DNA of 62,019 nucleotides, counting the filler, from Platydemus manokwari (lineage: Eukaryota), in assembly GCA_037951405.1 (NCBI GenBank). It is 6 parts of 6 records of this genome, joined end to end, with 100 filler letters (N's around TTAATTAATTAA, not from the genome) between each part and the next. Parts side by side here need not be neighbours in the genome. Positions count along the whole stretch, not along the records: positions 53,077 to 62,019 come from JBBMOY011325095.1; 5 more parts are not named here. The stretch is one strand, 5' to 3'. Below, piece by piece: positions 33,838 through 62,019 of this stretch. Positions within the stretch are counted from its first letter, which is position 1. Every line of letters starts with the position of its first letter. The position numbers and the translations under genes are program-made. The notes beneath the pieces are model-generated. The model saw only the letters and a program-made list of their open reading frames with translations, searched no databases and was not told the origin of the DNA.

Positions 33838-36800
33838 ACGATTTCTCCAATAGTTCTCTCTTTACGACTAGCAAGGGATAATTTGAGAGCCTCAAATAAA
33901 TAGTTTTATTAAGTGCTTCAATACTATCCTTAATAAATGATAACTAGAATGAAAATTCTAGAATTTTTAAATTAATATGTTATGATTTTAGAAAAAAATG
34001 ATGAAAATAATATTGTATAATAAAATAATAATTATTATATATAGATTTATCTATTTTGTAGTATAATTATGTTTCCAATATTGATATTAATAATAATAAC
34101 ACTGACGCTAAAAATTCAATCGAACTCTTCTATCATGCTTTTACACTTGGTTAATACTTTAGAAAATCTTTTGTCCTGTAACAAAAGAGATGGTTTTGAC
34201 GGGTATTCTTACAAGAATTATGGGTCTAATCATGTTACAGGAGAAAATCCGCCTAGAAATATTCAAAAACCCCTGACCTGGCGGTAAAGCCTAAACAAAT
34301 TCGGTAATTGAGATAACCCAAATGGTAAGACACTGTCGACGAGTCCTTTTAAAACTTTGACGAGACTTAGAATGTCCAAGTTCAGGGATAACCACCTCAC
34401 TACAGTTAAGCCGAAACTGCAAGGCATGGTAGGCAGAATGGTTACAAACAAATAAAGCTATTGGACATAGTATTGGATAAATACTTATCGGATTACGGTG
34501 TTGTGGAATCTGTGAACTGGAGAGTTGGTAATAGCAAAGGAGTTTAAGAAATAGCTTGCGCAACTTGAATTTAAATAAGAAACCAAATTTCATTAAACTC
34601 GAAGATGAAAGTTTCCAAATGATAAACAGGAAGACACGATAAAACTCAGGAAGGCGATCTCGCATGTGAGGTTACATATCTCGGTCTAAATCAAAAAATA
34701 CAAAAACCCATATAAACGTATCACCTACAGATCTTACAAGAAAAATAGAAGAAAATAATGATATGAGTTTTAAAGAAAAACAGAGAACCCTTATTTCTGC
34801 TACAATCAAGTTTAACAAATCATGGTTTCTGTATATTGACGTCAGATCGCTAAAAGTGAAACTACATCTTAAAGCAAGTTTAGATAAATTCAGAAAAATC
34901 ATTGGAAAAGAGCAAAGGGGAGGAGAATGGAGCAAACAAGTGCTAAGGATACTAACTGTAATTCTAATAATATAACAGCATTAAATAATAACTATGCTAT
35001 AATGAAACTCAAAAATAACCTTCCTGCTTACGGAATAGATGATATGGTTAAAGATAAAGTTATGTAAACCATGAAAGATATCGTTTGGCCAACAAATACA
35101 TTGGATAATGATAAAAGAGTTACATTGGGTAATCTAAGCTCTTACAATGTATTTCATTTAGACAATGAAAACTTTGGACCAAACAAAACAATACAGCTAG
35201 ATCTCCTCTATCGTCATGGATGATAAATAATTCAAAATTATTAGATAAGTTCTATTGCAAGTTCCACTATAGGACCTATAATAATAAGGGCCTTCAAATA
35301 ATAGGACCTACCTTCCCGGTTCATGAAAAATCTTGAATTAGAAAAAGAAAAAATGAAAGACGAAATCAACAAAGCTTTGCAAATCAAGAAAAAATACTAC
35401 ATAAATACTACAGGATGACCATATCTTCTTAGCAGAAATATATATGATGGGCTTATGTTAAAAAGAATTTCAATGTCAAAGTTTTCTAGTACTCGTTCAT
35501 TTTATTGACAAAGCAAATGATATAGAGGAAGGACTCAAAGGAATAAGTCCTACTAAGATTAGACTATGGAAGGCAGGCTACTGATTTTTCAATATATGTT
35601 GAACATCAGCTACAACTTTCATTTCCCGAGAATAAAAATAGAGATAATAAAGAAAAAAGCAAATAATGCGATGTTCGAACATGAATGGAAAATCAAGTGT
35701 GCATACCATATAACCGCCAAATAGACATATTTGAAATCGGGAAATCATTAGCAGACGTACTCGTTAGAGCCAATGAGGAAAAAGGAGGTGAAACCGATAT
35801 GAAATTAAGGAGACTTCTGCATGCAAAATACTATATCACTACAATTCGATGTGATGATAAGAAAATATCTGAAAAATCTTTTGGTATACCAAATGCTTCT
35901 AATCGAATTATCATTACTCAAGCAAATCAAACGGTGGCTGTGGACCATGGAATATAGTAGAGGTATATACGATACAATCGATCACCTACATGTATCATAT
36001 ACTAACGAGCAAACATGATATGATTATGATGACGATACCCATTATGCAAAAAGGATGGGATGAATAAAAAATGTCATGTTCGATAACGTTTCCGTAGTAT
36101 TTTCACTCTTTCAGATGCTGAACCCATTTGATTCTGTGTCAACTTTTACTTTTTTGTTATGCTAATTTCTGGGTTCTGGCTATTTCAGGGTTCTATATTT
36201 GTGTAATTAATGATCTCAACGTTAATATTAGTTTAGTATCAATGAAAACATGATATTAAATCTGAATATTGTAATACCTTCTTATAAACGAGTGACATAA
36301 TAACTGTTTTGGCTTTCAAACCCGTTATTGAAGAGTTGTACATGAATTGTTGATTAAGAAAATTTCGGCTCAAAGAAACAATAAAAATGCAAATCATATA
36401 GAAGAATCCTTGCCATGTATATTCGCTTTTACTATCAATAAATACAATAAAGAGACTGAATGAAATAACATCAATATCTTATGTTGATTGAGAAAATCAA
36501 ACTTCAAAATTGCTGCCTGGAGAAAATTTAACTGATCATAGACGATTTTAATAAGACCTGTTAAAACAAAATTGTAACCCATAGTAAAAAATAACGCCCG
36601 TAAAAATGATGGTTTCATTTTATTGTCATTAGCACTACTTTCTTCTGAATTATTACCAATATCGTCATTTTCAAGTCGTTGATAACCTTTATTTGACTGA
36701 TTTTTGGATTTACTTGATAAATTATTTTACATGATCAATCCAAAAGAAAACATAAATTACTAATATATTGTGCCAGTTCTCTTTATTTCACGTTCCCATT

Positions 36801-39800
36801 CTTTATCCATTATCGGTACTATCTTACTAGTTGAAACATTATGGCTTATCTGATACAAATTTTTTGCTTCAATTGGTCTGCGAAATCCTCTTATAATAAA
36901 TCTAACAGATAAAATAAATATTTTCATTCATATTAAGTCCACCATTAAGACACTCACAAGAAAACCCATGAGAATGTTACCTTAGATAGAAATGAAGCTT
37001 TAATTTCAGGACTTATCTGATAGAAAATATAAAGTTAAAAAATTTCCAATCAAACTATACTGGATATTTCGATTTTGGCATCTCAATGGTGTGGTTATTT
37101 AACAGAGGTCTGTTTTCATCATTCTCAGTTAAATATGAATTCTTATTCCCAATATAAACATGTTTCGATACTACAATATCTGCAAAACAATTAGCAATAA
37201 AAATGATCAACACTAATATGAATTCAATGAGGGATGTAACAAATCGCAAATTGTTTCCTTGATCGATCTGAAAAAGGGAAAAACCAGTAAAACAATTAAA
37301 CAAATCAATAATATAATTCAACATTGTATCTTCGAGATCGGGAATACATTAATATGGTACTGGTGATTAATTGTAGGAACCAATAGATAAACAGAACTCC
37401 CGATGAGTGGACACCTTTGAAAAATGTCAATCGATTAATATAAATCAGGAAAAGCTGAAATAATAATTTAATTAAATATTCTGCAGACAATATTTTTTAA
37501 AAATAATATACATCATCAAAAGAATGACAAATAAATAACGACGATATAGAAATGATAAAAGGAGCAATAGGTCGAATGCGAAGTTACCTCATACTCAAAG
37601 GGGATATAATAAAAACTAGAGAAAACGAAATATGAGTATCAGTAGAAAAGATAAGAGAAATGGTAGAATATACTCACAGATCACTGTGTCATGCAGGAAA
37701 GGAGAAGATCACACAATATTTTTAGAAATAATTTCGATATGAAAGACTTGGGAAAGAAAATAAAAGAAGACATAAGCTAGTGTGAAGGCAGAACCAAAAT
37801 CACTGCATACATATACGGATCATAGGAGGAAACGAAAAGAAGAGTAAAATATATACCAGTTCAATAGATTCATAATACCGAAACTCATTATTATAAAAAA
37901 CGAGAAACAAAGTGTGATTCAAAATCAATGGTTTTAAAATATGGTACACCTAAAGAAATACACATAGAGATGATGGGAAATATTTCTAATAATGGTGAAT
38001 AAGGGATATGACTTTCAAAATGGGAACGGAGTTGATCTTCTCGAGTCACTATCATCACAACGATAACTGAATCATTAAACGACAATTTCGAACGATTAGG
38101 AATCACATATACGCAACGATAAGGGAGAGACAAAATACAAATTGGGCAGGAAGATTACCAAAGATCGAATATATGTTGAATTCGACAATGCAAAAACCAT
38201 CAAGGCCTGTCCAACAGAAGTCTTTCTAGAAAAAAGATAGACAGAAAACAGTGACAAGCAAATAGACAAAGAGATGGAAAAGATCATGATAGATGAACAA
38301 CAATTAAACGCAAATTCAAGGAAGGAAGTAGGGCATTAATAAAGAAAGAAAATAGGAATAAAAATCTGGAAAGAAGCTACCAGCTACAAAATGCAAAAGG
38401 AACAGTATTAACAAGAAATATGGAAAAGATCAAGAATTTTAAAAAAGGGAAGATGTGAGGTTAATTTGAAAACAAACAAAATGATCTTTTAAAAATGCTA
38501 TAATTAATTAAAATTTACATACTATCAAAATTATTTAAAAATTATTTTAAAAATAAATAGACCATATTAATTTTCATAAAAGCTAAGCATCTTGCTAAAC
38601 TTCACTGTTAAACTCTTATTAAAAAATGTAGACAAATCTGATTGCATAAATTCTGATTTCGAAATTTTAAAAACGATGTTTTAAATTTAAAAATTTGTTT
38701 GAAAATGGATGTAACGATAAATATATTAATATTCTGTTTTTTGGTTTATTTTTATTTTATATCAAAAAGTCACTCGTAAAATGAAACCAAATATTATTTA
38801 TTATTACTTGAAATTTTTAATATTACTTCTGACTTATATTATTAGAATGTTTTCATTGTCATCGATGAAATGAATTCTAAGGTATTTATTCTGTTAATAT
38901 TAATCGGAATTCATAGAAAAATATTCACTACCTCAAATATAATAACAAACGCTGACAAATCACCTTTTCGTGTATCTTTAATATATTTTATGTTTCGTTA
39001 TGAATGACTAGTTTCAAGTGCATCGAGAAAATCTATCGATTGGTAAATAATCAGAGAAATACACAAGTGAATCATGTACTGTAAAATTTTGAAGGCCACT
39101 GATATAGTAAAAAATGAAAAAATAACACGGTAAATGATGTTTTAAATATTATTTATACATATTAATACGCTGCTCATCATTTTTTATATCCATCAAAACT
39201 ATAAAATATTGAAAATAATAAATATTTTATTATGGGTTTCAGATCCAATTTCATGAATTATTTTATTGTTATCGTCAATATTTCAGTTAAATTGAAGTTT
39301 ATTTAAGACGGAATTTTATCTTTCGTGTTAACAAATCGATATAATATTAAAATTAATTCTGAATTAAGTTAAAAAAAATCAGAAATGTCATTAAATCTAG
39401 TTGATAGAATCGGTTAGACAATTTCAATTTCATTAAATTGTAATTTAAAAAGAATAAAGCACACAATACTCGCTGTAATTTTCAGCGTTTAATGCAAAAG
39501 TATATATCCCAGATAATAAAATGAGGAATTATATCTCCTGATTTTATGAAACTATTTTAATTGTATAAATATTAGAAATAAATAAAATATAAAATATTTT
39601 AAATTGTTATTTCTCAAAACATTCTTTATAAACTAATATTATTATTATTGTGAGAATTTGAAATTGAATTAAAATTTTTAAAGGCTTAGTTTTGTATAAA
39701 ATTAAATTTGATTTTATAAAAAATATATTAATTTGTTTAAATATTTGCATTTAAAGACATTTTTAGTGTCGCTATTTTCAGTTCGTTTAGTAGGCCACGA

Positions 39801-41380: not shown

Positions 41381-41889
41381 TTATATTAATAATTTTTTCA
41401 AATAAATTTCTTGATTTTTTAATCTATCTTTGGGACATCAAATTACAAGACATTCAAATAATTTAAGCTATAATTGCTCTGAAGTCATTTATTTAAACAA
41501 GTTAAATACTTCATTTAATTGTAAACAAATTAATATACCGTTATGAATATTTAATAATAATAAATGATCATTTTATTTAACTTGTTTTAAATTATTTAAT
41601 GTTAGCGGAAACAAAAACGCATTTTAAATTGAAAATTTAAATGACAAATTCTTATAAATGTAATGATAATATTTTAAGGAGTTGCAGTACCTATTAGTAG
41701 CATTAACACTGTCTTAAATATTATAATTATTCATGAATACTATATTTAATTACTTATAATATCGCATTGGTAAAAACTGTAATATAACATTAATTAACTA
41801 ATAAAATTTTGAAATTTATTAGATTTAGTCATATAGAAATCATTCGAAACTTTAATGCTATACTGATGAAGATCGATATCATTACTTAG

Positions 41890-43787
41890 TGTATCTCCAG
41901 CAACCTTTCAAAAACTAATGTACAAGCTGTTAGATAGATTGATCTTTAAAGGTGTTGTAGTATATTTGGATGATGTGTTAAAATACGGAAAAACTCAGCA
42001 GAAGCATCTACTAAAAGCCGTATTTCGACGAATTGAAGAGTCGGGTTTGAAAGTGAATTCAGAGAAATGTACACTTATCAAAGATGAAGTAATAATTTTA
42101 GATCATACGGTCAGTACCAAGGCCATACAGACTAATTACGACAAAATCGAACAGATACGAGATACCCCAATACCAGTAAACTGCAATCATTTTGAGGGCT
42201 GACAAACTATTACAGGCGATTCATCAAGGATCACGCTTTATTAGTGGATTCACTATACGCAGCAACTGTATGTGGAATCAGGAATTACAATGGTTAGAAT
42301 CGCGTCAAACAAGTTTTTTGAAGCTAAAGTTGGCACTTTGTGAAGCACCAATTTTTGATTACCCACGATAAAATAGGATATTTGTACTCGATACAGACTC
42401 AGGTTTTGGTGCAATAGAGTCTGATCTAAGCCAAGTTACTGAAGAAAGAACAGAAACAGTTATAGACTATGGGTCTCGATTGCTGATTAGTCACGAGAAA
42501 GGGGACTGCGTTACCAAGAAAAAACTGATAGCTATTCACGAGTATGTTATTTACATTAGACAATACTTGTACAGGAAGAAATTCATCGCGAGGAGTGATC
42601 ACAAAGCCCTGGTATTCTTGAACTCGACACGAAAACCGATCAGCCCTCATATTCAAACATGGATGGCGGTGCTGTCAGAATACGCTTTATTTGTCAAGCC
42701 AATTCACGGGGAGCTCTGCCACTTAGGCTCAAAGAAAACTTTCGCCTACTTGGACGACAGTTTTTTGGCCAGACGTGTTCAGGACCATCAAACAGATACT
42801 TAAAAAATGTAATAGATGGGCAAGGAGAAAGGTTGATCAATCCAGAACTAAGGAGTTTCTGATCCCTTGGTTAGGCTGTGAGTTTCAAGAGCAAATCGAG
42901 GTGGACATTGTCCAAATGGACACGGTGCATATTAACAAGAAGTATCTAGTAGTCATTATCGACATATTCAGCAAGCTAGTGAGTCTCACTGCTACATCTT
43001 AGCAAGACGAAAAGACAATCTTCCAAGTCATCTTGAACTCGTGGTTTTATCGTTTTTGAAAGCCAGAGAGCATTCTATCTTATAACTGGAAACAATTTGG
43101 AGGCAAATTTATGAGGGAGACTTATTTAAAGTTGGGTATCAAGCAAGAATTCAGCTCACCATACCAGCATCAATCGGACGGGCTGGGGGAAAGAGTCATC
43201 AGGACGGTACTAGATACTATAACAGCTACTTTAAAGGGTAAGAGTCCCGAGAAAAATAGGTCTGAGTTGCTGCTAAGGATAGAGTTCTGCATCAACGTAA
43301 CACATCAATCAACAACGAAGTTCTTGCCTTTCCAGATAATCTACGGCCAGAAGATCAATGTTCATACAAATGTTAGTCAGAAGACCAAGACTCGAGATAA
43401 TACTGCAGCAGAGGCTAGAGAAAATTCTGTGGTGGCAGCCGACATAATGTCTAACCGAGACAAGAGAAGAAGAATACATCGAGCTTTTCAGGTGAGAGAG
43501 AAAGTGCTAGTTTTCGTAGACCCCCATAAGAGGATGAAGAATGGATACCAGTACGAAACTCCCTACCGAATTACCGGATTCAAGTCATACAAACAAGGGT
43601 TGATTCAATTGCCTCATGCGATAAAATCCAGACGATTAGAGTGGCTGAAACGGTGTAGTGAGCATTAAGAGGACGCGAGTGACATTGATTAAATAAAGAA
43701 ACACGTTGATTTGTTTAAATAGTTAATTGACAGATTAGTGAAGTTTTTTAAATAAATATTATGTCTGAAAGTGTCAATAATGCAACT
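41890..43787 (+). mobile_element. 5'-truncated Ty3/Gypsy element: RT-RNase H-integrase pseudogene, PPT and 110-bp 3' LTR
   Basis: PATFQ..YLDDVL (RT), DTDSG..SDHKAL (RNase H), HGELCHLG, VDIV..VIIDIFSK and FSSPYQHQSDGLGER (integrase) with stops/frameshifts; AAGAGGACGCG then LTR 43678-43787. Confidence 0.92.
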
Positions 43788-53076: not shown

Positions 53077-53525
53077 TTATCTCTGAACATTGGTAGTCTA
53101 ATTCTGTGGCTCACAGATTGATGTGTTCCACCTTGTTGACCTTGCTGCATTCTTCTATCACCACCGTCACCTTGAGTTCCACTGTCTTTTATCTTTAGCT
53201 GCTCCATTTGCAGCTGTAATTCCAATTTCTTTATTTCATTCTCAGCCTTCAGCTTCTCTGCTTCTAATTGCATTCTCATTTGCATTTCCATTTTTATCTT
53301 CTCAAGTTCTCTGTCACCCGCTTCTTTTCTTTGTATCATCTCTCTTTCTTTTTCTTTCTCTCTTTGTAGTGCCTCCTTCTCTTTCTCTTTTTGTAGTGCC
53401 TCTTTCTCCTTCTGTAGAGCTTCTTTCTCTAAACTGTATTGCTGTTCTGACCACTTAATCAACTCGTCACCTGTCTTCCCCAGACTTGTCGCTGTTCTAA
53501 CCCATGCATCAAAAGCCTTTGCCAT
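53077..53525 (-). CDS. N-terminus of the gag-pol polyprotein (coiled-coil Gag region); continues at 62019
   Basis: MAKAFDAW.. with KEKEALQ repeats, ending in MQQGQQGGTHQSVSHRIRLPMFRD, identical to the start of the 57361-62016 ORF. Confidence 0.9.
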
Positions 53526-56410
53526 TTTGAATCACCACTGGATTTTTACAATGTAATGATATAGAGTTAGTTCAGATCACTTATAATCACATTATCTTTT
53601 GTTCCACCAGCTGCTTATTGAAAAATTATATCACCCAACTCCTCTAGTCTCTGTAATAAGTTCCTTGACTTGGCTTATTATAGCTGTTTACCTGGCTGAA
53701 AAATTATCTGCTGTTTAAACAACCTGTAAATGTATCATTAAATAAATTCATACATCACAATGTACAATATTGAAACAGATAATACATATCTTATAATGTT
53801 CCAAGTGTGAATGAGGTTTCTCCAGCCAGTAGGGACCTGACTGATTTAGCCTCCAGCCAGCAATCACCTTGATGCAAACCCAGATATCTGAAAGTTAACC
53901 TGGATTACTTGATTTGGAGCTAGGATTTGGACCAGCTCTTTAGCAGATGAACCACTGGAAAAATAAAACAGTTGAATGTGCTGCTCTTTACTTGCAAGCA
54001 TATAACAGTACAAGCCCTGACGAGAAGTAGTCTTCGAAGAAGGACTCGATAGATGCAAAACCCACAGAATTATGAAGAATTCAGGCCTTGAACAAATCCA
54101 GTTATCCAAACTTGAAATTGTATTTCCACCTAATAATACTGAAGAATTATTCCCACATGCCTGTTAAATCGTAAGCACTTCACATTTATATTCACTGTTA
54201 TGCTGTAGAATATATGCCTTTTGGATGATATCCTAGTTTTACACCAATCCTTATGAATATTGTACGAAGACCATGTTGAATCCTGAGTTGCTTTCGTATA
54301 TAATTTGATTCTTCAATGATGAAATTCAGAATGATATTCCTATATTCACTGTTATTTATTCCAATCAGTCATATGGCTGTGTTTCCTTTGTTTACCGAAG
54401 GAATGACTTGAATGTAAAGTCCATTTGAAGCTCGATGATAATGCTAAATTGCAGAATACTCTCCCAAAAACAGCTGTTTAGCCAGTAGTACGTTGAAAAG
54501 TCGAGGTTAGCCAGTTGTAATGGTATGATGTGTTGTTGTTGATGTAATGTTGACGAATGATGAACCCCCAATATTGTAATGTTTATAAGGGGGATAGATA
54601 GTGTGCGATATTATGTTGTTGAAGTTGTGTTGACTTCCGATGACAGCTCCCACTGTTATTGTCCACATCACCCGATGACCACCCAATAATAGTATATCTT
54701 TGAAGAAGGAACCAACCCTCAGTAGAATGATAGTTACTAGATCAGCCACCAGGCATGGACACTATAAGTCAATGAAATCAACACCCAACTTTGGCCTTCA
54801 CTAAGATGAGGCCTTTGCACTAAATGTCAGCCCAATATTTCTAGGTCGCCATTAATGATAATCTCCCAGTTCACCACCATCAACACCCATAATTATAAAT
54901 TCTCGTCGCCTTGAATTGTTGTAGTTTGGCCTTGATAAAGCTTTGCGAAGTTCGTCAACGCTACTGACTACTAAGCTGAAGATTGTCTCTGTTCTGATAG
55001 AATCTCAGATAGCTTCAGGAATACTTTAAAGATATGTAATCATCAGTTCAGTTGGAATAGATCACAGTTCATCAGCACATTGAGAACAGATTATTATAAA
55101 GTTCAAAGTTGTAGTCTTCACGACCTCAAAAGAGATTCCAGTCTAGAAATCTAGCCCCAAGGCCTCTTTGCTGAAGTGCTCAAGACAGTTGTTATTCAGA
55201 ACACTTGAACAGTAAAGATGAAGCTATCTCTGCCTGATTTTCCCTTTGGGAACTCCGAATAATTTAAAGTCAGACTACTTGAAAGTCTTAGAACATTGAA
55301 GAAGAATTAAAGTCTATCACTTCAATGATATCTTCCAGACCCCTATGCTCCAGCTAATTCAGTGTAAAGTATATCTGTTCACCCAAGCTCACCTTGCTGG
55401 TATGCTCATCTTAATCTGCTTCTTAAATACTGGATACTCAGTTATTTCACCTCTGCAGAACTCTCTTCACCGTTGCACCTTAGTTATTAGATTATTCTTC
55501 TTCTGGCACCAAACTCCCACCATTTGACAATTTCTCATTTATATTCTTTTTCTCTCTTGAATTTTCAGTGTTGATCCTCAGGAACTCTTTATCACTTAGT
55601 GTTGATCATCTGGAACTCTTTTATTACTTTGCCAACTCTGTCCACCATTAGCATCATTGCATCCACTTGTCATTAACTGAAAAACCATCCACCATCTCTT
55701 CTAATCCTCAAGTTAACTCCTAATAATTGTCTTAATATATCCAACATAAATTATTGCACTAGGAAAGCTCGGGAACAATTTAAAAGTTTTAATACTTGAA
55801 CTTAGAAATTCTGGCTCCAAGAGCTGAACAACAGCACATAGTTTGGCGATACGAATAAATGATTTTCTCACAAGTTCCACAGGCAATGAACACAAACAGT
55901 TACTTACATAGGCGATTGATGAGTATGAAAAACTAGTCACTCATAGCTAATAAAACATTGTCTATGACTTCACCCGCTCACTTCTACTCACCACTCATCT
56001 ATTATGTTCACCTCTTTTTGTGCCACTTCTACTCATATTCTTTAAATTCACTTTACTCTCTCCGACCGTGCAGTTTCCTCTCCTTTGCACGTATTTCCAG
56101 TTCTCCTGACTCCTGGACTCCAATATGTCTCCACACAAATAAAAAAACCCTTATCCTGGGTTGCTCCTCTGCTCCTTGCAGGTACACCTTTATCTTCTGC
56201 AATCTTGCAGATGAATAATCTCCACCGAACTCTTGGCTTTCCCTTTTTCCTCCTGGGATTCTGCCGACATAATACTCCTGCTTTACTCTCCCACACAAGC
56301 TGCTTTAAGGCGTCGGGCACTTCACGACAGTTCCTACCTGTCACTTGACAACTCCTACCTAACCTACCACACCGTACAACAAATCCTACCCACACTAGTA
56401 CACTGACATC

Positions 56411-56427
56411 TCCTATCCACTGCTCCA
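56411..56427 (-). promoter_or_regulatory. Primer binding site (tRNA-Ser-like)
   Basis: TGGAGCAGTGGATAGGA one base after the LTR end; resembles the TGGCGCAG..TAGGA Ser-tRNA PBS with a mismatch. Confidence 0.65.
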
Positions 56428-56428
56428 A

Positions 56429-56687
56429 TGTGACTCCTCCAGACATGGCTGCGACTATCCCTTATGAAGGCTTCTTCACGTCTGCTTCTTTCGCGGGGAT
56501 TCAAACTCAAAGATCCCTGGGGATGACGTAAGGCTGTTTGAGCCAAACTACTGGTTAACTTTTCCCCGGGACCCAGCGTCTCTTTGCATCACGGCTATTT
56601 TTAGCCTGTATGCGTTTTTTGCGTGGTGTTCAGCCACGGTTCAATTTGGTGTACTTTGTACACCCGGACCTGACTTGTGGCATCACA
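56429..56687 (-). repeat. 259-bp LTR
   Basis: TGTGA..TCACA inverted termini, bracketed by the PPT and the PBS. Confidence 0.85.
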
Positions 56688-56688
56688 A

Positions 56689-56702
56689 CTCCCCCCTTCC
56701 TC
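56689..56702 (-). promoter_or_regulatory. Polypurine tract
   Basis: GAGGAAGGGGGGAG immediately 5' of the LTR. Confidence 0.85.
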
Positions 56703-57360
56703 GGTTTTTAAATTTACAAATCGTCAGATTTTGTAAATTTACCGTTCGGGTATGTGTGGCCATCAGAATCCATGTATATCAACCTAAGGTTGAAATTTAT
56801 TCATTTTCATGTAACACCATTATTCTACCATATAATACATGATTATATACACATATGCATTATAAATGGTTATGAACATATTATTAGATTAAGATGATAC
56901 TAAGACTAATGATCATCGTAATGAAATATGTTGGGTGACACATGTCAGGTAATTTTTTTCCCATCATTTTCAAATTATTACATTTTTTTTTTCATCATGT
57001 CTCTTTTTTTTTTTTCACATTAATAATATAAAGAGAATTTTATTATTAACTTTCACTCGTCTTTCATGCTTCAATACTTGTTTGTGGCACAAGTATTTTC
57101 CTTAAGAATGTATGGGCTTCAATAGTCTGCTTGTCCCAGTACACCCATCTCATATGGATCAGAACAGACTCCTGCTCGACATAAGCCCTGGATCAAGGTT
57201 AGCCCAGGAAAACACTCCTAGTTTGTACCATGACCCTGATAGAAAAAGATCAATGTGAGTGATCTGTGTGCTTATCTATATACATAAACATCATAAGTAA
57301 GTCATGTCAATAATGAACCGTCACCCAATTCTGTATATTATGATTTAGACAGTACAGAAT

Positions 57361-60300
57361 TTAAGTTCTTGACAAAAAGTCAGCTAATATGTTTTGAGCA
57401 CCAGGAATAGCTTTGACTGTAAAAGAATACTCCTGTAGTATCAATAGCCATCTCATGAGTCTGGCATTAAGGACGTTTTTAGTTGTAAGATACATGATAG
57501 GCTTGTGGTCTACCAATACTTGAAATGGTTTTCCCAACAGAAATCTCTGGAATTTTTGAATACCATTCAGAAGAGCCAATACTTCCCTCTCTATACAACT
57601 GTAACGACATTCCGTTGGTGTTAGTTTTCTAGAACCATATAGAACTGGCAATAATGTGCCTTGGTGTTCTTGTTGTAAAACGTAACCAAGTGCTGTTGAG
57701 GAAGCGTCAGTTGACAATACGAAAGTATTGTTAAGATTTGGAGCTCTAAGAATGGGTGGCGAAGAGAAGATTTCCTTGATTTTCTTTAAAACCTTATCAT
57801 GTTTGTCAGTCCACATAATTTTTCTACCTGTACTTTGCTTTAGCAGTTCAGACAGTGGAGATACAATATCAGCAAAATTCTGAATGTAATGTCCATAAAA
57901 GTTCAGTAACCCCAATATCTGTCTGATTTGTCTCTTTGTCTGAGGTATTCTAATTTGTAGAATTTTGTTAATGTTGCATGGTTCTGGTCTGATTAAACCA
58001 TGACCAACTGTATGACCCAAAAATGATAAACAGTCAAAAGCGATTTCCACTTTTGAAGGTTTAGCTGTGAGTCCATTTGTTTGCAAAATGTTCAAAACAC
58101 ATTCCAAATTTACAACATGATCAGCAAAAGATTGGTTGTATAACAGAATGTCATCGTAATAATGCACCACATTCTTCTGTCCCTTGAATAGACTTCTCAT
58201 AAGTCTAACAAATGTAATTGGAGCATTAGAAAGCCCAAAAGGCAAGCGTAAGAAATGGTATACATTGTCAGACGTTGCAAAGGCAGTAAGTTTTCTTGAA
58301 TCTTTGTGTAAGGGCACTTGATAGTAACCTTTAGTAAGGTCTAATTTAGAGAAATATTTTGCATCAGCAACCTGAGATAATAACTCCTGTGCATTAGGCA
58401 TAGGAAATTTGTCAGGTTTTGTGACAGAATTCAGTCTTCTGTAATCTATGCATAATCTCAGGGAATTGTCCTTTTTCTTGACAATTAAAAGTTGAGAGGA
58501 GAACTCTGCCTCAGACTCCTCTATGATGCCCATCTTTAGCATGTCTTTCACTTCCTGATCTACTTGTTGTCTAAGATGGAAAGGAATAGGAAACAACCTT
58601 TGAGACATGGGTAACTCCGAAGTAAGAGTAATTTTGTGTTCTATTTTGGAAGTTACACCAGGAATGTCTGAAAAGACTTGTTTGAACCTGTTCAAGCACT
58701 CTTTAATCACCTCTACCTGATAGGACTCCAGATGCTCAGAAATCTTGACATCCAGATAGTTTTCTTTCTGAGACAAAGATGGGTAAACTATGTCTTGTAT
58801 CCCATCAGTTCTATTTTCATTGTCTTCAAAAGTAGACAAGACAGCAGAAAAAGATACATTTTCTTTATCATTGTGAACCTTGTCTTCAACTGACCATTCA
58901 GGTCTTCTTTCCTGATACTGCTTCAACATGTTAATGTGTAAGATTTTATTGTTATTGTTAATTCTAACAATGTAGTCCACCTTGGATATTCTTTTGTCCA
59001 CAATGTATGGACCTCTCCAAGAACAAATAAGCTTGTTTTCTTTTTCTGGTAACATGACAAGAACCTTGTCTCCTGGCTTTAATTCTCTCATTTTACTCTT
59101 TACATTAGCATACATTCTTTGTTTTGCTCCAGCCTCTTTTAATGCCTCTGATGCCCACTGGCAAGATTTGATTATCCTCTCCCTCAATTGAAGTACATAT
59201 GTGTATGCCTCTATTTTTTTTTCATCTTCACCTTTCTTTTTAATGAGGTCAGCATATAAACTCAATGGACCATTAGGATTACCCCCAAACATCAACTGAA
59301 ATGGCGACATGCCCGTACTTTCGTGTGCCACCTCTCTAAGGGCGAAAAGTGCAGGTTGTAGAAAGATGTCCCATTTTTCTGGGTAATCTACTGTTATCTT
59401 CCCTAAAAGTGTCTTAAGTACACCGTTTAACTTTTCGCAAAGTCCATTTGATTGTGCGTGATAGATGGAACAAAAGTGTTGTTCTATCCCCAGCATCTCT
59501 GTTACCTGTTTAGTAATCTGGGACACAAATTGTGGCCCATTGTCTGATAGTATAGATTCAGGGAATCCAAACCTAGAAAAAATGTCCAAGAGAGCCTCAC
59601 ATATACTTTCTGCGTCAATTTTTGCTAAGGCCTTGGCCTCAGGCCACCTTGTTGCAAAATCAATCACTGTGAGGATATATTTGTTTCCTTTATCAGAGGT
59701 CACCGGTAAGGGACCTATGATGTCCATAGAAATCCTTTGAAAAGGAATAGCAGTTATATACCCTGTCTGTACAGGTGCATGAGGAATGGCACCTCTCTTT
59801 GCCAATTTCTGACAAATATGGCAACTACTAATATACTCCCTGATATCCCTGGTCATACCAGGCCAAAAGAATTGTTTTTTAATTCTGTTGGTGGTTTTCT
59901 TAACACCCAGGTGTGCAGATAATGGTATGTCATGAGCCAATCTTAATACTTTCAACCTGTGGCTCTTTGGTAAGACAATCTGTTTATAAGATGTGAAAGA
60001 GTCATGAAATATTCTATAAAGAATATTGTTATTGAGAGAAAATTGAACAGTACCTCTCCTGCATAACCTGCAACCGTCTTTAATTTTTTTAAAACACCCA
60101 GATAGTGTTTTATCAGATGCTTGCTCCTCAGCAAGTGAAATTTCACCTTTCTGAACATTCTGTTCATCCAATGTATTCATATTTTGGTTGGTATTTGTAC
60201 CATTTATTGGCTTATCAGTAGACTGAGTGGTATTTACTTTTTGAGAATCATCACCATTGTTGGTTTGGTCTACTGTGCCAGTTTCTGTCAGTTGTGCATC

Positions 60301-62019
60301 ATTTTGCACTACTGAATCTTTTGATTCAACACTCTTTTTCTTTGCCATTGCTCTTGTTGAAACAAGATTTGCTTGAGTATCATTCTTTTTAACAAATCCG
60401 TATTTGAGATCCCACTCTTGTATTTCCTGGTCTGTAGGATTTTTCACTTTGGGCAAGTTACCTATCACCAATTCGCAAATAGAAGAGGGTAATATAAGAG
60501 CCTGAAACGTCCCCTCCAAAAATGGCGTCTTAACATGTATAGTGGCAAGATTAAAATATTCGATTTTGCCACCGAATGTAATACATTGAACTTTTTCTTT
60601 GGAGATCTGGTTTTGTGGCACCAAATCCCTACTCACACCCAAAATGCTGGCACCTGTATCTCTTAAAATTCGAACCGGGTGGTTATTTACCAGTCCATTG
60701 TGGAAGAACAGTGATCCCCTACTGTCCTCCTGTAACATGACAACATTTAACCCTTCTCCACACTTCAAAGTAATATCCTGAGACACCTTGCTCTCCTTTG
60801 ATTCATTACTTCTTTGCATTTCTGTTGCACCATCATCACCATTATTTTCTTTAGCCTTCACCTCATCTGCATGGCTCATTATTTTTTCATGATTTGAACA
60901 GTAACTCTTATTTCTCCCATGACAAGATAAATCATTACTTCTCCACCTCTTTCCTCTACTGATATCTGCACCATACTCATTATTCTGAGTCAACTCATTG
61001 CTATGCATCAACAGATTTGCTGTTACTGGTTGTGTATCTCTTTGATTAACATTGCACCTCTGAGAAGCATTTGCAACATTTGCATATCTACTTCTTGTAA
61101 AATGACCTTGAGGTTGGTGGTAAGCATTTTGTTTTTGGTTCCAGCTTCCCCAATTCCTTTGTGGTCTCCACATTTTCCCTTGATAATTCATTCTTCCATT
61201 GTAGCCATTATTTCCATAGTTTCTGCCTCCATTCCACACATTTTCTCTGATCCTTCTTTCATATTGACCTGTAAATTGTCTGTTGCCTTGAAAGTTCCTT
61301 TTACTCTTATAGATTCCATTACTGTGAAATCCAGAACCTTCACCTTCTTTATACTTTTGTTGGCTTTGAATACTGGACTTATTTTGAATCCTTTGATTGC
61401 TGTTACTCAGTTTGGCTGAAAATGCCACATTTCTATCCAGCTCTGTTGTGACACATTTACCCAATGGTATTTGAGGGTGTGCCTCACAAAAGTCTGAAGT
61501 CATTGTGATGAGAGCCTTGAGATCCTTTGGTTTGTTTTGAATTATGTTACTGTATATCTTACTGTTCACAGATTCCAGTATTTTGCTAATTAGGATCTGC
61601 TGTTTCAGAGATTCAAAGTCCCATTGTATTCCTGTAGCAGTTATCCACTTTGTAAAAAGTCTCTCCAAATTTGAGACGTATTCCAGGAAAGTCTGTTTAT
61701 TTGTGGGAATGCAATCCACAAACTTTCTTCTGTTATTTTCTGTTGTAACCTTATATTTGGCAAGAAGTGCCTCTTTGACTTTCTCATAAGATTTTCTGTC
61801 TTCCTGGTTTAATGCACACACCACTGTCAGTGCCTCACCTGTCAAAAACTCTGTTAACTTAGTTGCATAAAACCTTTTCTCCAGGCCCTCCATTATACAA
61901 ATTTCTTCATACCTGTCCAGAAATTCCTCTATGCCATCCACATTATCTCTGAACATTGGTAGTCTAATTCTGTGGCTCACAGATTGATGTGTTCCACCTT
62001 GTTGACCTTGCTGCATTCT
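57361..62019 (-). CDS. Gag(SCAN-like capsid)-protease-integrase-reverse transcriptase-RNase H polyprotein (1676 aa when joined to 53525-53154)
   Basis: Open frame with LRDTGAS (protease), HDIPLSAHLG..CHIC (integrase zinc finger), MDIIGP/SDNG/SNGLCE (DDE), WRGPY, LPFGLSNAP and YYDD (RT), TDAS..IERE..DHKP..ADFLSR (RNase H). Confidence 0.96.
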   Translation of the reverse strand, partial: RMQQGQQGGTHQSVSHRIRLPMFRDNVDGIEEFLDRYEEICIMEGLEKRFYATKLTEFLTGEALTVVCALNQEDRKSYEKVKEALLAKYKVTTENNRRKFVDCIPTNKQTFLEYVSNLERLFTKWITATGIQWDFESLKQQILISKILESVNSKIYSNIIQNKPKDLKALITMTSDFCEAHPQIPLGKCVTTELDRNVAFSAKLSNSNQRIQNKSSIQSQQKYKEGEGSGFHSNGIYKSKRNFQGNRQFTGQYERRIRENVWNGGRNYGNNGYNGRMNYQGKMWRPQRNWGSWNQKQNAYHQPQGHFTRSRYANVANASQRCNVNQRDTQPVTANLLMHSNELTQNNEYGADISRGKRWRSNDLSCHGRNKSYCSNHEKIMSHADEVKAKENNGDDGATEMQRSNESKESKVSQDITLKCGEGLNVVMLQEDSRGSLFFHNGLVNNHPVRILRDTGASILGVSRDLVPQNQISKEKVQCITFGGKIEYFNLATIHVKTPFLEGTFQALILPSSICELVIGNLPKVKNPTDQEIQEWDLKYGFVKKNDTQANLVSTRAMAKKKSVESKDSVVQNDAQLTETGTVDQTNNGDDSQKVNTTQSTDKPINGTNTNQNMNTLDEQNVQKGEISLAEEQASDKTLSGCFKKIKDGCRLCRRGTVQFSLNNNILYRIFHDSFTSYKQIVLPKSHRLKVLRLAHDIPLSAHLGVKKTTNRIKKQFFWPGMTRDIREYISSCHICQKLAKRGAIPHAPVQTGYITAIPFQRISMDIIGPLPVTSDKGNKYILTVIDFATRWPEAKALAKIDAESICEALLDIFSRFGFPESILSDNGPQFVSQITKQVTEMLGIEQHFCSIYHAQSNGLCEKLNGVLKTLLGKITVDYPEKWDIFLQPALFALREVAHESTGMSPFQLMFGGNPNGPLSLYADLIKKKGEDEKKIEAYTYVLQLRERIIKSCQWASEALKEAGAKQRMYANVKSKMRELKPGDKVLVMLPEKENKLICSWRGPYIVDKRISKVDYIVRINNNNKILHINMLKQYQERRPEWSVEDKVHNDKENVSFSAVLSTFEDNENRTDGIQDIVYPSLSQKENYLDVKISEHLESYQVEVIKECLNRFKQVFSDIPGVTSKIEHKITLTSELPMSQRLFPIPFHLRQQVDQEVKDMLKMGIIEESEAEFSSQLLIVKKKDNSLRLCIDYRRLNSVTKPDKFPMPNAQELLSQVADAKYFSKLDLTKGYYQVPLHKDSRKLTAFATSDNVYHFLRLPFGLSNAPITFVRLMRSLFKGQKNVVHYYDDILLYNQSFADHVVNLECVLNILQTNGLTAKPSKVEIAFDCLSFLGHTVGHGLIRPEPCNINKILQIRIPQTKRQIRQILGLLNFYGHYIQNFADIVSPLSELLKQSTGRKIMWTDKHDKVLKKIKEIFSSPPILRAPNLNNTFVLSTDASSTALGYVLQQEHQGTLLPVLYGSRKLTPTECRYSCIEREVLALLNGIQKFQRFLLGKPFQVLVDHKPIMYLTTKNVLNARLMRWLLILQEYSFTVKAIPGAQNILADFLSRT

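What the first reader, a model, noticed from the sequence alone, without database searches (positions are those of the whole stretch)
53077..62019. Intact Gmr1-type retrotransposon assembled as a one-LTR circle
Seen: the first and last 77 nt of the contig are identical; closing it gives 8866 bp with a single LTR and one stop-free 1676-aa ORF in which integrase precedes RT. It has no lesions, unlike every other TE here, and is less AT-rich. Known: PR-IN-RT-RH order defines the Gmr1 clade, and 77 is a common de Bruijn k-mer. Inference: a young, probably active family whose identical LTRs collapsed in the graph; real 1-LTR circles, a tandem array, recent horizontal arrival or DNA from another organism are alternatives.
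Basis: partly seen in the sequence, partly recalled or inferred. Interest (0 to 1): 0.7.

Follow-up and report, generated by a model that had tools for sequence, protein, structure and literature searches.

The report
Eaten snail's retrotransposon in flatworm assembly
This is an intact jumping gene of a known family whose ring shape is likely an assembly artefact of many chromosomal copies, and it likely comes from a land snail eaten by the sequenced flatworm rather than from the flatworm itself, so it is ordinary.

Summary
In detail: exact 77-nt end repeat, 8866-bp unit, one stop-free 1676-codon gag-PR-IN-RT-RH frame. The single LTR is 54516-56687 (2172 bp). The ring is best read as graph collapse. 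The cut lies inside gag. Seventeen short contigs leave LTR ends into unrelated flanks. Summed depth over the LTR is about 4 times that of the internal non-coding parts. No 2-LTR junction was found. Two other LTR contigs close with the same 77 nt. The main correction is the host. G000 is mixed: land-planarian-type COX1 with nuclear pseudocopies in AT-rich contigs, three land-gastropod COX1s and one arthropod-type COX1. The element's best named relatives are land-snail proteins (60/55/52%; clade 100/98). Its flanks are 41-43% GC against 28% for the window's other stretches; a slug genome averages 42%. Likely prey DNA (about 0.8). Transfer into the flatworm is not excluded (about 0.05). Activity and single-copy depth are unmeasured.

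The parts
53077..53153 (.). 77-nt end repeat, copy 1 (likely assembler k-mer overlap; lies inside gag)
   Evidence: X1 contig runs across it
61943..62019 (.). 77-nt end repeat, copy 2
53077..53525 (-). Start of the polyprotein frame (charged, E/K/Q-rich gag N-terminus; ATG at 53525)
   Evidence: same start in sister families L013, L014; no Pfam hit
53526..54513 (-). 5' internal non-coding region (about 1 kb)
   Evidence: summed depth 19-23 in X1
54500..54515 (-). PBS-like site: 2-nt spacer, then TGG; only ACTGGC is shared by the three families; priming tRNA not identified
54516..56687 (-). Single long terminal repeat, 2172 bp, TGTGAT...ATTACA
   Evidence: 15 host junctions at the start motif (3 carry the sister family's variant) and 2 at the end motif; matching ends in L013 (2215 bp) and L014 (2205 or 2236 bp); depth step
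56688..56702 (-). Polypurine tract directly before the LTR start
   Evidence: nearly the same in L013 and L014
56703..57360 (-). 3' internal non-coding region; no env-sized frame
   Evidence: no frame of 80 aa or more wholly in this region; depth 15-16
57361..62019 (-). Rest of the gag-pol frame, 1552 aa, stop-free
61477..61740 (-). Capsid C-terminal, SCAN-like region (weak)
   Evidence: Pfam SCAN E 0.028 here, E 0.0014 in L013; both under the curated cut-off
60463..60696 (-). Aspartyl protease (LRDTGA)
58915..59970 (-). Integrase (HHCC, DDE core, GPY and SH3-like C-terminus), upstream of RT
58006..58482 (-). Reverse transcriptase (YYDD)
57427..57813 (-). RNase H

Best explanation
The contig holds an intact Gmr1-type LTR retrotransposon unit (one LTR, one gag-PR-IN-RT-RH frame) that likely represents many chromosomal copies collapsed into a loop by the assembler, and these copies likely lie in the genome of a land snail or slug eaten by the sequenced land planarian. 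Shown: anatomy, multiple unrelated junction flanks, depth step over the LTR, mixed-species assembly, snail-like relatives and flank composition. Inferred: an LTR-internal-LTR element (about 11.0 kb) whose 2.2-kb LTRs far exceed k=77 becomes a cycle; prey nuclear DNA is too shallow to give long contigs, so each insertion junction stays a 240-1165-bp fragment and only high-copy families and mitochondria assemble whole. In its own host it would move by the standard route (transcription from the 5' LTR, capsid assembly, priming at the PBS and PPT, integration by IN); this rests on established knowledge and was not tested.
For: Collapse: the cut is in gag and X1 bridges it. 17 of 19 LTR-end junction contigs enter flanks with no blastn hit to each other; of the other two, one has a PPT-like sequence upstream and one a 5-nt flank. 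Summed depth averages about 81 over the 7 LTR bins (25-124) against about 18 over 5 internal non-coding bins. The one hit of the 2-LTR-junction pattern is not LTR sequence. L014 (Gmr1-type, 9085 bp) and L163 (RT-IN gypsy, 9008 bp) also close with exactly 77 nt. Foreign origin: G000 holds COX1 of a triclad (89% to Bipalium adventitium), three land gastropods (94% to Megaustenia, 91% to Deroceras; best 89.5% and 93.5% among fetched proteins), two of them on 14.2- and 14.8-kb contigs, and an arthropod-type COX1 (79% to insects). The five AT-rich stretches match the dinucleotide profile of contigs with triclad-like COX1 pseudocopies (delta* 23-87) and not the element (120-146). The three best RT-RH hits are Bradybaena similaris proteins at 60/55/52%; all others listed are 47% or less. 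The element's clade (100/98) contains only those three and six other G000 rows. Pooled flank GC is 0.429 (0.412 without a microsatellite flank), while 10,000 same-length draws from the AT-rich stretches gave mean 0.282, max 0.346. The three L014 flanks are 0.345-0.429. A slug genome averages 42% GC and is RTE-dominated (PMC12506671, passages). Prey DNA in land-planarian assemblies is reported (PMC8815365, passages). A planarian genome lacks detectable 5mC (PMC3824064, abstract); a snail genome has mosaic methylation (PMC8549274, passages).
Against: No flank was tied to a gastropod by sequence, only by composition. Single flanks do not exclude the flatworm: L032 is 0.335 GC (20% of null draws reach it) and L033, L020, L112 sit at 5-8%. 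The null comes from five long contigs only. Flank CpG o/e is intermediate (0.61-0.71), and flank delta* to the element families (94-108) is only modestly below that to the AT-rich sets (118-162). CpG transitions among copies are barely enriched (11/131 against 87/1349 sites at 90% identity or more), so methylation of these copies is not shown. No hit is named as triclad or isopod, so the snail affinity may partly reflect what the database holds; an arthropod prey is also present. Flatworms do carry Gmr1/Osvaldo families (PMC12801592, passages). X1 depth sums contigs at 85% likeness or more and is no copy number; single-copy depth was not obtained.
Confidence: 0.8

Rival explanations
1. Same collapse, but the family belongs to the arthropod prey or another unlisted organism in the mix.
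For: An arthropod-type COX1 is in G000; flanks are assigned by composition only.
Against: Nearest named relatives are land-snail proteins with a clear gap; two gastropod mitochondrial contigs are near whole length while the arthropod one is 2.8 kb; crustacean rows (Penaeus, Palaemon) fall elsewhere in the tree.
Confidence: 0.08
2. A snail-derived Gmr1 family was horizontally transferred into the predatory flatworm, and at least some copies now sit in its chromosomes.
For: Predator-prey contact; intact frame under purifying selection; a few flanks are low enough in GC to be flatworm (L032 0.335, L165 0.345, L079 0.25 over 20 nt).
Against: All 17 junction contigs are 240-1165 bp, while retroelements related to the window's own remnants sit in 8-13-kb AT-rich contigs (L145, L149); pooled flank GC lies above all 10,000 null draws; at least three unit-length sister families and several more fragments share the snail clade, which would need many transfers.
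Confidence: 0.05
3. A native, vertically inherited flatworm Gmr1 family that prefers GC-richer sites.
For: Gmr1/Osvaldo occurs in a flatworm (PMC12801592, passages); IN-before-RT elements with host-like CpG exist in G000 (L119/L162 CpG o/e 0.97-0.98).
Against: Those host-like elements form a separate clade; the element has CpG o/e 0.19 in its frame in a genome at about 0.9; flank composition.
Confidence: 0.04
4. The contig mainly reflects real extrachromosomal 1-LTR circles (or a head-to-tail array) of an actively replicating element.
For: The unit is exactly what a 1-LTR circle would be; short reads cannot tell them apart; a minor share of circles cannot be excluded.
Against: Circles alone predict LTR:internal depth near 1 and no host flanks; observed about 4:1 and 17 flanks; no 2-LTR junction in the assembly (weak, rare forms are dropped); two other LTR contigs close the same way.
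Confidence: 0.03

Closest known systems
Gmr1 clade of Ty3/gypsy LTR retrotransposons (type element from Atlantic cod; PMC8220671 and PMC6238403, passages)
   Same: Integrase upstream of RT in a gypsy-type pol; SCAN-like capsid C-terminus then PR, IN, RT-RH (10.1101/2025.03.03.638093, passages); TG...CA LTR; PPT.
   Different: LTR of 2.2 kb is long (103-1468 bp across one annelid's elements, PMC8220671 passage; typical Gmr1 LTR length not looked up); no CCHC knuckle in the 1552-aa piece; the type element itself was not in hand for the tree.
Unnamed polyproteins of the land snail Bradybaena similaris (P0001-P0003)
   Same: IN-RT order, RT 58-68% and IN 59-69% identity, one clade at 100/98.
   Different: 48-50% identity over the aligned polyprotein: separate families; their LTRs were not seen.
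Prey ('alien') DNA in short-read assemblies of land planarians (PMC8815365, passages)
   Same: Gastropod high-copy sequences assembled beside the flatworm's own.
   Different: The passages seen concern marker contigs found with rRNA and cox1; here the high-copy passengers are whole retrotransposon units.
1-LTR circles of retroviruses and LTR retrotransposons (recalled)
   Same: Identical sequence layout.
   Different: Here host flanks and excess LTR depth point to integrated copies and solo LTRs.

Membership tests
Gmr1 clade | PR-IN-RT-RH order | tested here: met
   also in L013, L014
Gmr1 clade | RT-RH of Ty3/gypsy type, grouping with other IN-before-RT elements | tested here: met
   107 of the 120 listed RT-RH hits have IN before RT, 5 RT before IN, 8 no IN; the 48-row group holding the element is split from the 14-row RT-IN group at 99/95 (midpoint root; 35 of 120 hits and 26 G000 loci used)
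Gmr1 clade | Clustering with the named reference element Gmr1 | not testable with these tools
   no hit was labelled Gmr1
Gmr1 clade | SCAN-like capsid C-terminal domain | tested here: inconclusive
   E 0.028 here, 0.0014 in L013, none in L014; all under the cut-off; many listed relatives carry PF02023
LTR retrotransposon (integrated) | TG...CA LTR with PPT before it and host junctions at both ends | tested here: met
LTR retrotransposon (integrated) | PBS complementary to a tRNA 3' end | tested here: inconclusive
   TGG two bases after the LTR in all three families, sequence beyond TGGC not conserved; tRNA not searched
LTR retrotransposon (integrated) | Target-site duplication | not testable with these tools
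   no contig holds both flanks of one insertion
Ty1/copia (same domain order) | Copia-type RT | tested here: not met
   Pfam gives RVT_1 and gypsy-type RNase H and integrase models; no RVT_2 hit at E 0.1 (family meaning recalled)
Extrachromosomal LTR circle | No host flanks and LTR:internal depth near 1 | tested here: not met
   (as the main source; a minor share is not excluded)
Extrachromosomal LTR circle | Exonuclease-resistant circular DNA | not testable with these tools
   bench test

The most novel reading that the evidence does not exclude
A land-snail Gmr1 retrotransposon has crossed from prey into the chromosomes of a snail-eating land planarian and is caught while still intact and spreading.
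Probability: 0.05. Interest if true: 0.65.

Novelty: new member of a known kind. Interest (0 to 1): 0.17.

Why it matters
As it stands it is an undescribed family of a known clade and a warning about this assembly. G000 mixes a flatworm with several prey animals, so its cleanest-looking transposons may not be the flatworm's, and 77-nt closed loops are a general feature of its LTR elements. Other findings from this genome should be checked for GC, CpG and flanks. If a copy were shown inside flatworm chromosomes, it would be a predator-prey horizontal transfer between phyla with the donor group in the same sample.

Tried and rejected
2-LTR junction pattern: one hit, not LTR sequence. Hidden genes or RNAs in the 3.8-kb non-coding part: longest frames 82-137 aa; the top 20 tblastx rows against the sister families show short, stop-interrupted matches in several frames, as expected from DNA similarity alone; no Rfam match at E 0.1; no tRNA in the window. 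A PBS candidate near 55510-55530 was dropped: copies run through it and junctions place the LTR end at 54516. Match starts piling up at 54613 are a variable region, not the end. Self-priming as in Tf1 (recalled) was considered from a partial complement inside the LTR seen by eye; it coincides with a CCAAT-like box in the sisters and was not pursued. CpG-transition test: weak, not used as support. No RNA holder listed. Single-copy depth in X1 was not obtained, so copy number stays open. The flank that looks like a LINE (L005) had no meaningful Pfam hit; its likeness to RTE elements, and that of L111 and L112, is recalled only. Paper searches for loop collapse of LTR elements, Gmr1 PBS and snail-planarian transposon transfer were seen as listings and gave nothing direct; I make no claim that these are not in print. 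PMC8556966 (passages) only confirmed that Gmr1 occurs in several phyla. No supplements were read. The two earlier notes on this genome concern other elements.

Full report
Observation. The finding is the whole contig G000:C1325095 (8943 bp). Its ends share exactly 77 nt, against 0-5 nt for the other five stretches. The minus strand carries a frame from ATG 53525 to the left end and a stop-free 1552-aa frame from the right end to 57361; counted across the overlap this is 1676 codons. A contig of run X1 runs through the cut, so the cut is arbitrary. Pfam gives protease, integrase, RT, RNase H in that order, with a weak SCAN hit in gag; catalytic-type motifs are present.

Anatomy. Searching G000 with the suspected LTR start showed many matches ending at 56687. 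Copies either continue into the internal region or leave into other DNA at 54516 (two contigs). The LTR is therefore 54516-56687, 2172 bp, with a polypurine tract before it and a TGG motif two bases after it. Two sister families have the same layout, with LTRs of 2215 and 2205 or 2236 bp. An integrated copy would be about 11.0 kb. No extra gene or RNA was found in the non-coding part.

Why a ring. Of 19 contigs holding an LTR end plus outside sequence, 17 enter flanks unrelated to each other; three of these carry the sister family's start variant. In X1, summed depth averages about 81 over seven LTR bins and about 18 over five internal non-coding bins; this sums contigs at 85% likeness and is no copy number, but circles alone would give no step. 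The only hit for a 2-LTR junction pattern was unrelated DNA. Three unit-length LTR contigs (this one, L014, L163) close with exactly 77 nt. Collapse of integrated copies and solo LTRs in a k=77 graph explains all of this (assembler behaviour from my own knowledge; one search listed nothing direct). A minor share of true circles cannot be excluded.

Age and activity. Against L013 the IN-RH part shows dN 0.067 and dS 0.727 over 892 codons: a lineage under purifying selection. Of 252 X1 contigs laid, 84 are at least 99% alike, 81 at 95-99%, 46 at 90-95% and 41 below. Some short copies carry stops or frame changes (4 of the 7 that matched the frame; 9 checked). The main X1 contig over 53865-54646 differs from the window at 9 letters and 4 gaps, so the window contig need not be one real copy. 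Recent copies are likely; current activity is not shown; no RNA holder was listed.

Whose DNA. The element has GC 0.379 and CpG o/e 0.29, the other stretches 0.26-0.29 and 0.84-0.96. A COX1 search of G000 gave 35 matches. The five best are a table-9 triclad sequence (89% to Bipalium adventitium), three land gastropods, two of them on 14-15-kb contigs, and an arthropod-type sequence. Broken triclad-like COX1 copies lie in AT-rich contigs (5 of 6 tested score best against triclad COX1 by summed bits, the sixth by top identity only), and two such contigs match the window's five AT-rich stretches in dinucleotide profile, unlike the element. So the window's background is likely the flatworm. The element's best named relatives are three Bradybaena similaris proteins at 60, 55 and 52%, all other listed hits 47% or less. 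In a 62-row tree (35 of the 120 listed hits and 26 G000 loci) they form a 10-row clade with the element and six other G000 rows at 100/98. The 17 flanks pool to 0.429 GC, 0.412 without one microsatellite; 10,000 draws from the AT-rich stretches never exceeded 0.346. L014's three flanks are 0.345-0.429. All junction contigs are 240-1165 bp, whereas relatives of the window's own gypsy remnants sit in 8-13-kb AT-rich contigs. A slug genome averages 42% GC and is dominated by RTE LINEs (PMC12506671, passages); gastropod prey DNA is reported from land-planarian assemblies (PMC8815365, passages); a planarian lacks detectable 5mC (PMC3824064, abstract), a snail has mosaic methylation (PMC8549274, passages).

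Against this reading. Flanks were assigned by composition, not by sequence match; a few are individually compatible with the flatworm (L032, L165). Flank CpG o/e is intermediate, and CpG transitions among copies are barely enriched. No listed hit is named as triclad or isopod, which may reflect database content. Flatworms have Gmr1/Osvaldo families (PMC12801592, passages), and G000 holds a separate IN-before-RT clade with host-like CpG. Single-copy depth was not obtained.

Classification. It works like, and by domain order and RT grouping is filed as, a Gmr1-clade Ty3/gypsy element (definition from PMC6238403, PMC8220671 and 10.1101/2025.03.03.638093, passages). The reference element was not available, the SCAN hit is under cut-off, and the priming tRNA and target-site duplication are untested. 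The 2.2-kb LTR is long but shared by the sisters.

Verdict. A real, undescribed family of a known clade; ring by assembly collapse; likely from gastropod prey (0.8). Horizontal transfer into the flatworm is the only exciting reading left open (0.05). The scan's index held no similar note. Interest 0.17.

Noticed in passing
G000:C1514745 (14,162 bp), C1389203 (14,807 bp), C43481, C1344449, C1440324: COX1 of three land gastropods, one arthropod-type animal and one triclad in a single assembly: G000 is a multi-species mix.
   Followed up: yes
L013 (C1328650, 8925 bp) and L014 (C1301873, 9085 bp): Two sister Gmr1-type families, also unit-length with one LTR of about 2.2 kb; L014 has a stop-free 1671-aa frame and two LTR-end/PBS-like motifs 31 nt apart; L013 ends overlap by 86 nt at 94% rather than exactly.
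   Followed up: partly
L163 (C1314872, 9008 bp): A standard RT-before-IN gypsy contig that also closes with a 77-nt overlap.
   Followed up: partly
L160 (C1468085, 14,404 bp), RT near 7530-8123: Gypsy-type RT inside a 3304-aa open frame, unusually long; not examined.
   Followed up: no
L119/L162, L121, L139: A separate IN-before-RT clade with host-like CpG (L162 o/e 0.97), a candidate native flatworm Gmr1 family.
   Followed up: partly
G000:C1120441, C78235, C1124886, C1562679 and others: Many broken triclad-like COX1 copies in AT-rich contigs (nuclear pseudocopies); they appear to derive from a COX1 only about 75-80% like the intact triclad COX1 contig L090, so a second flatworm mitochondrial lineage or old insertions.
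   Followed up: partly
window 13184-13411 (+), 17111-17353 (-), 19828-20064 (-): Three similar short frames with a hydrophobic start and a PAN-like domain (two scanned, under cut-off): a small secreted-protein family.
   Followed up: no
window 36239-37348 (-): Exons resembling an ABCC/MRP transporter with short introns (recalled likeness; no Pfam hit on the pieces).
   Followed up: no
window 41870-43668 (+) and about 15700-17000 (+): Broken RT-before-IN gypsy remnants, 77-87% like copies in other AT-rich contigs (L145, L149).
   Followed up: partly
window 54516-54615: The last 100 bp of the LTR vary strongly among copies while both sides are conserved.
   Followed up: no
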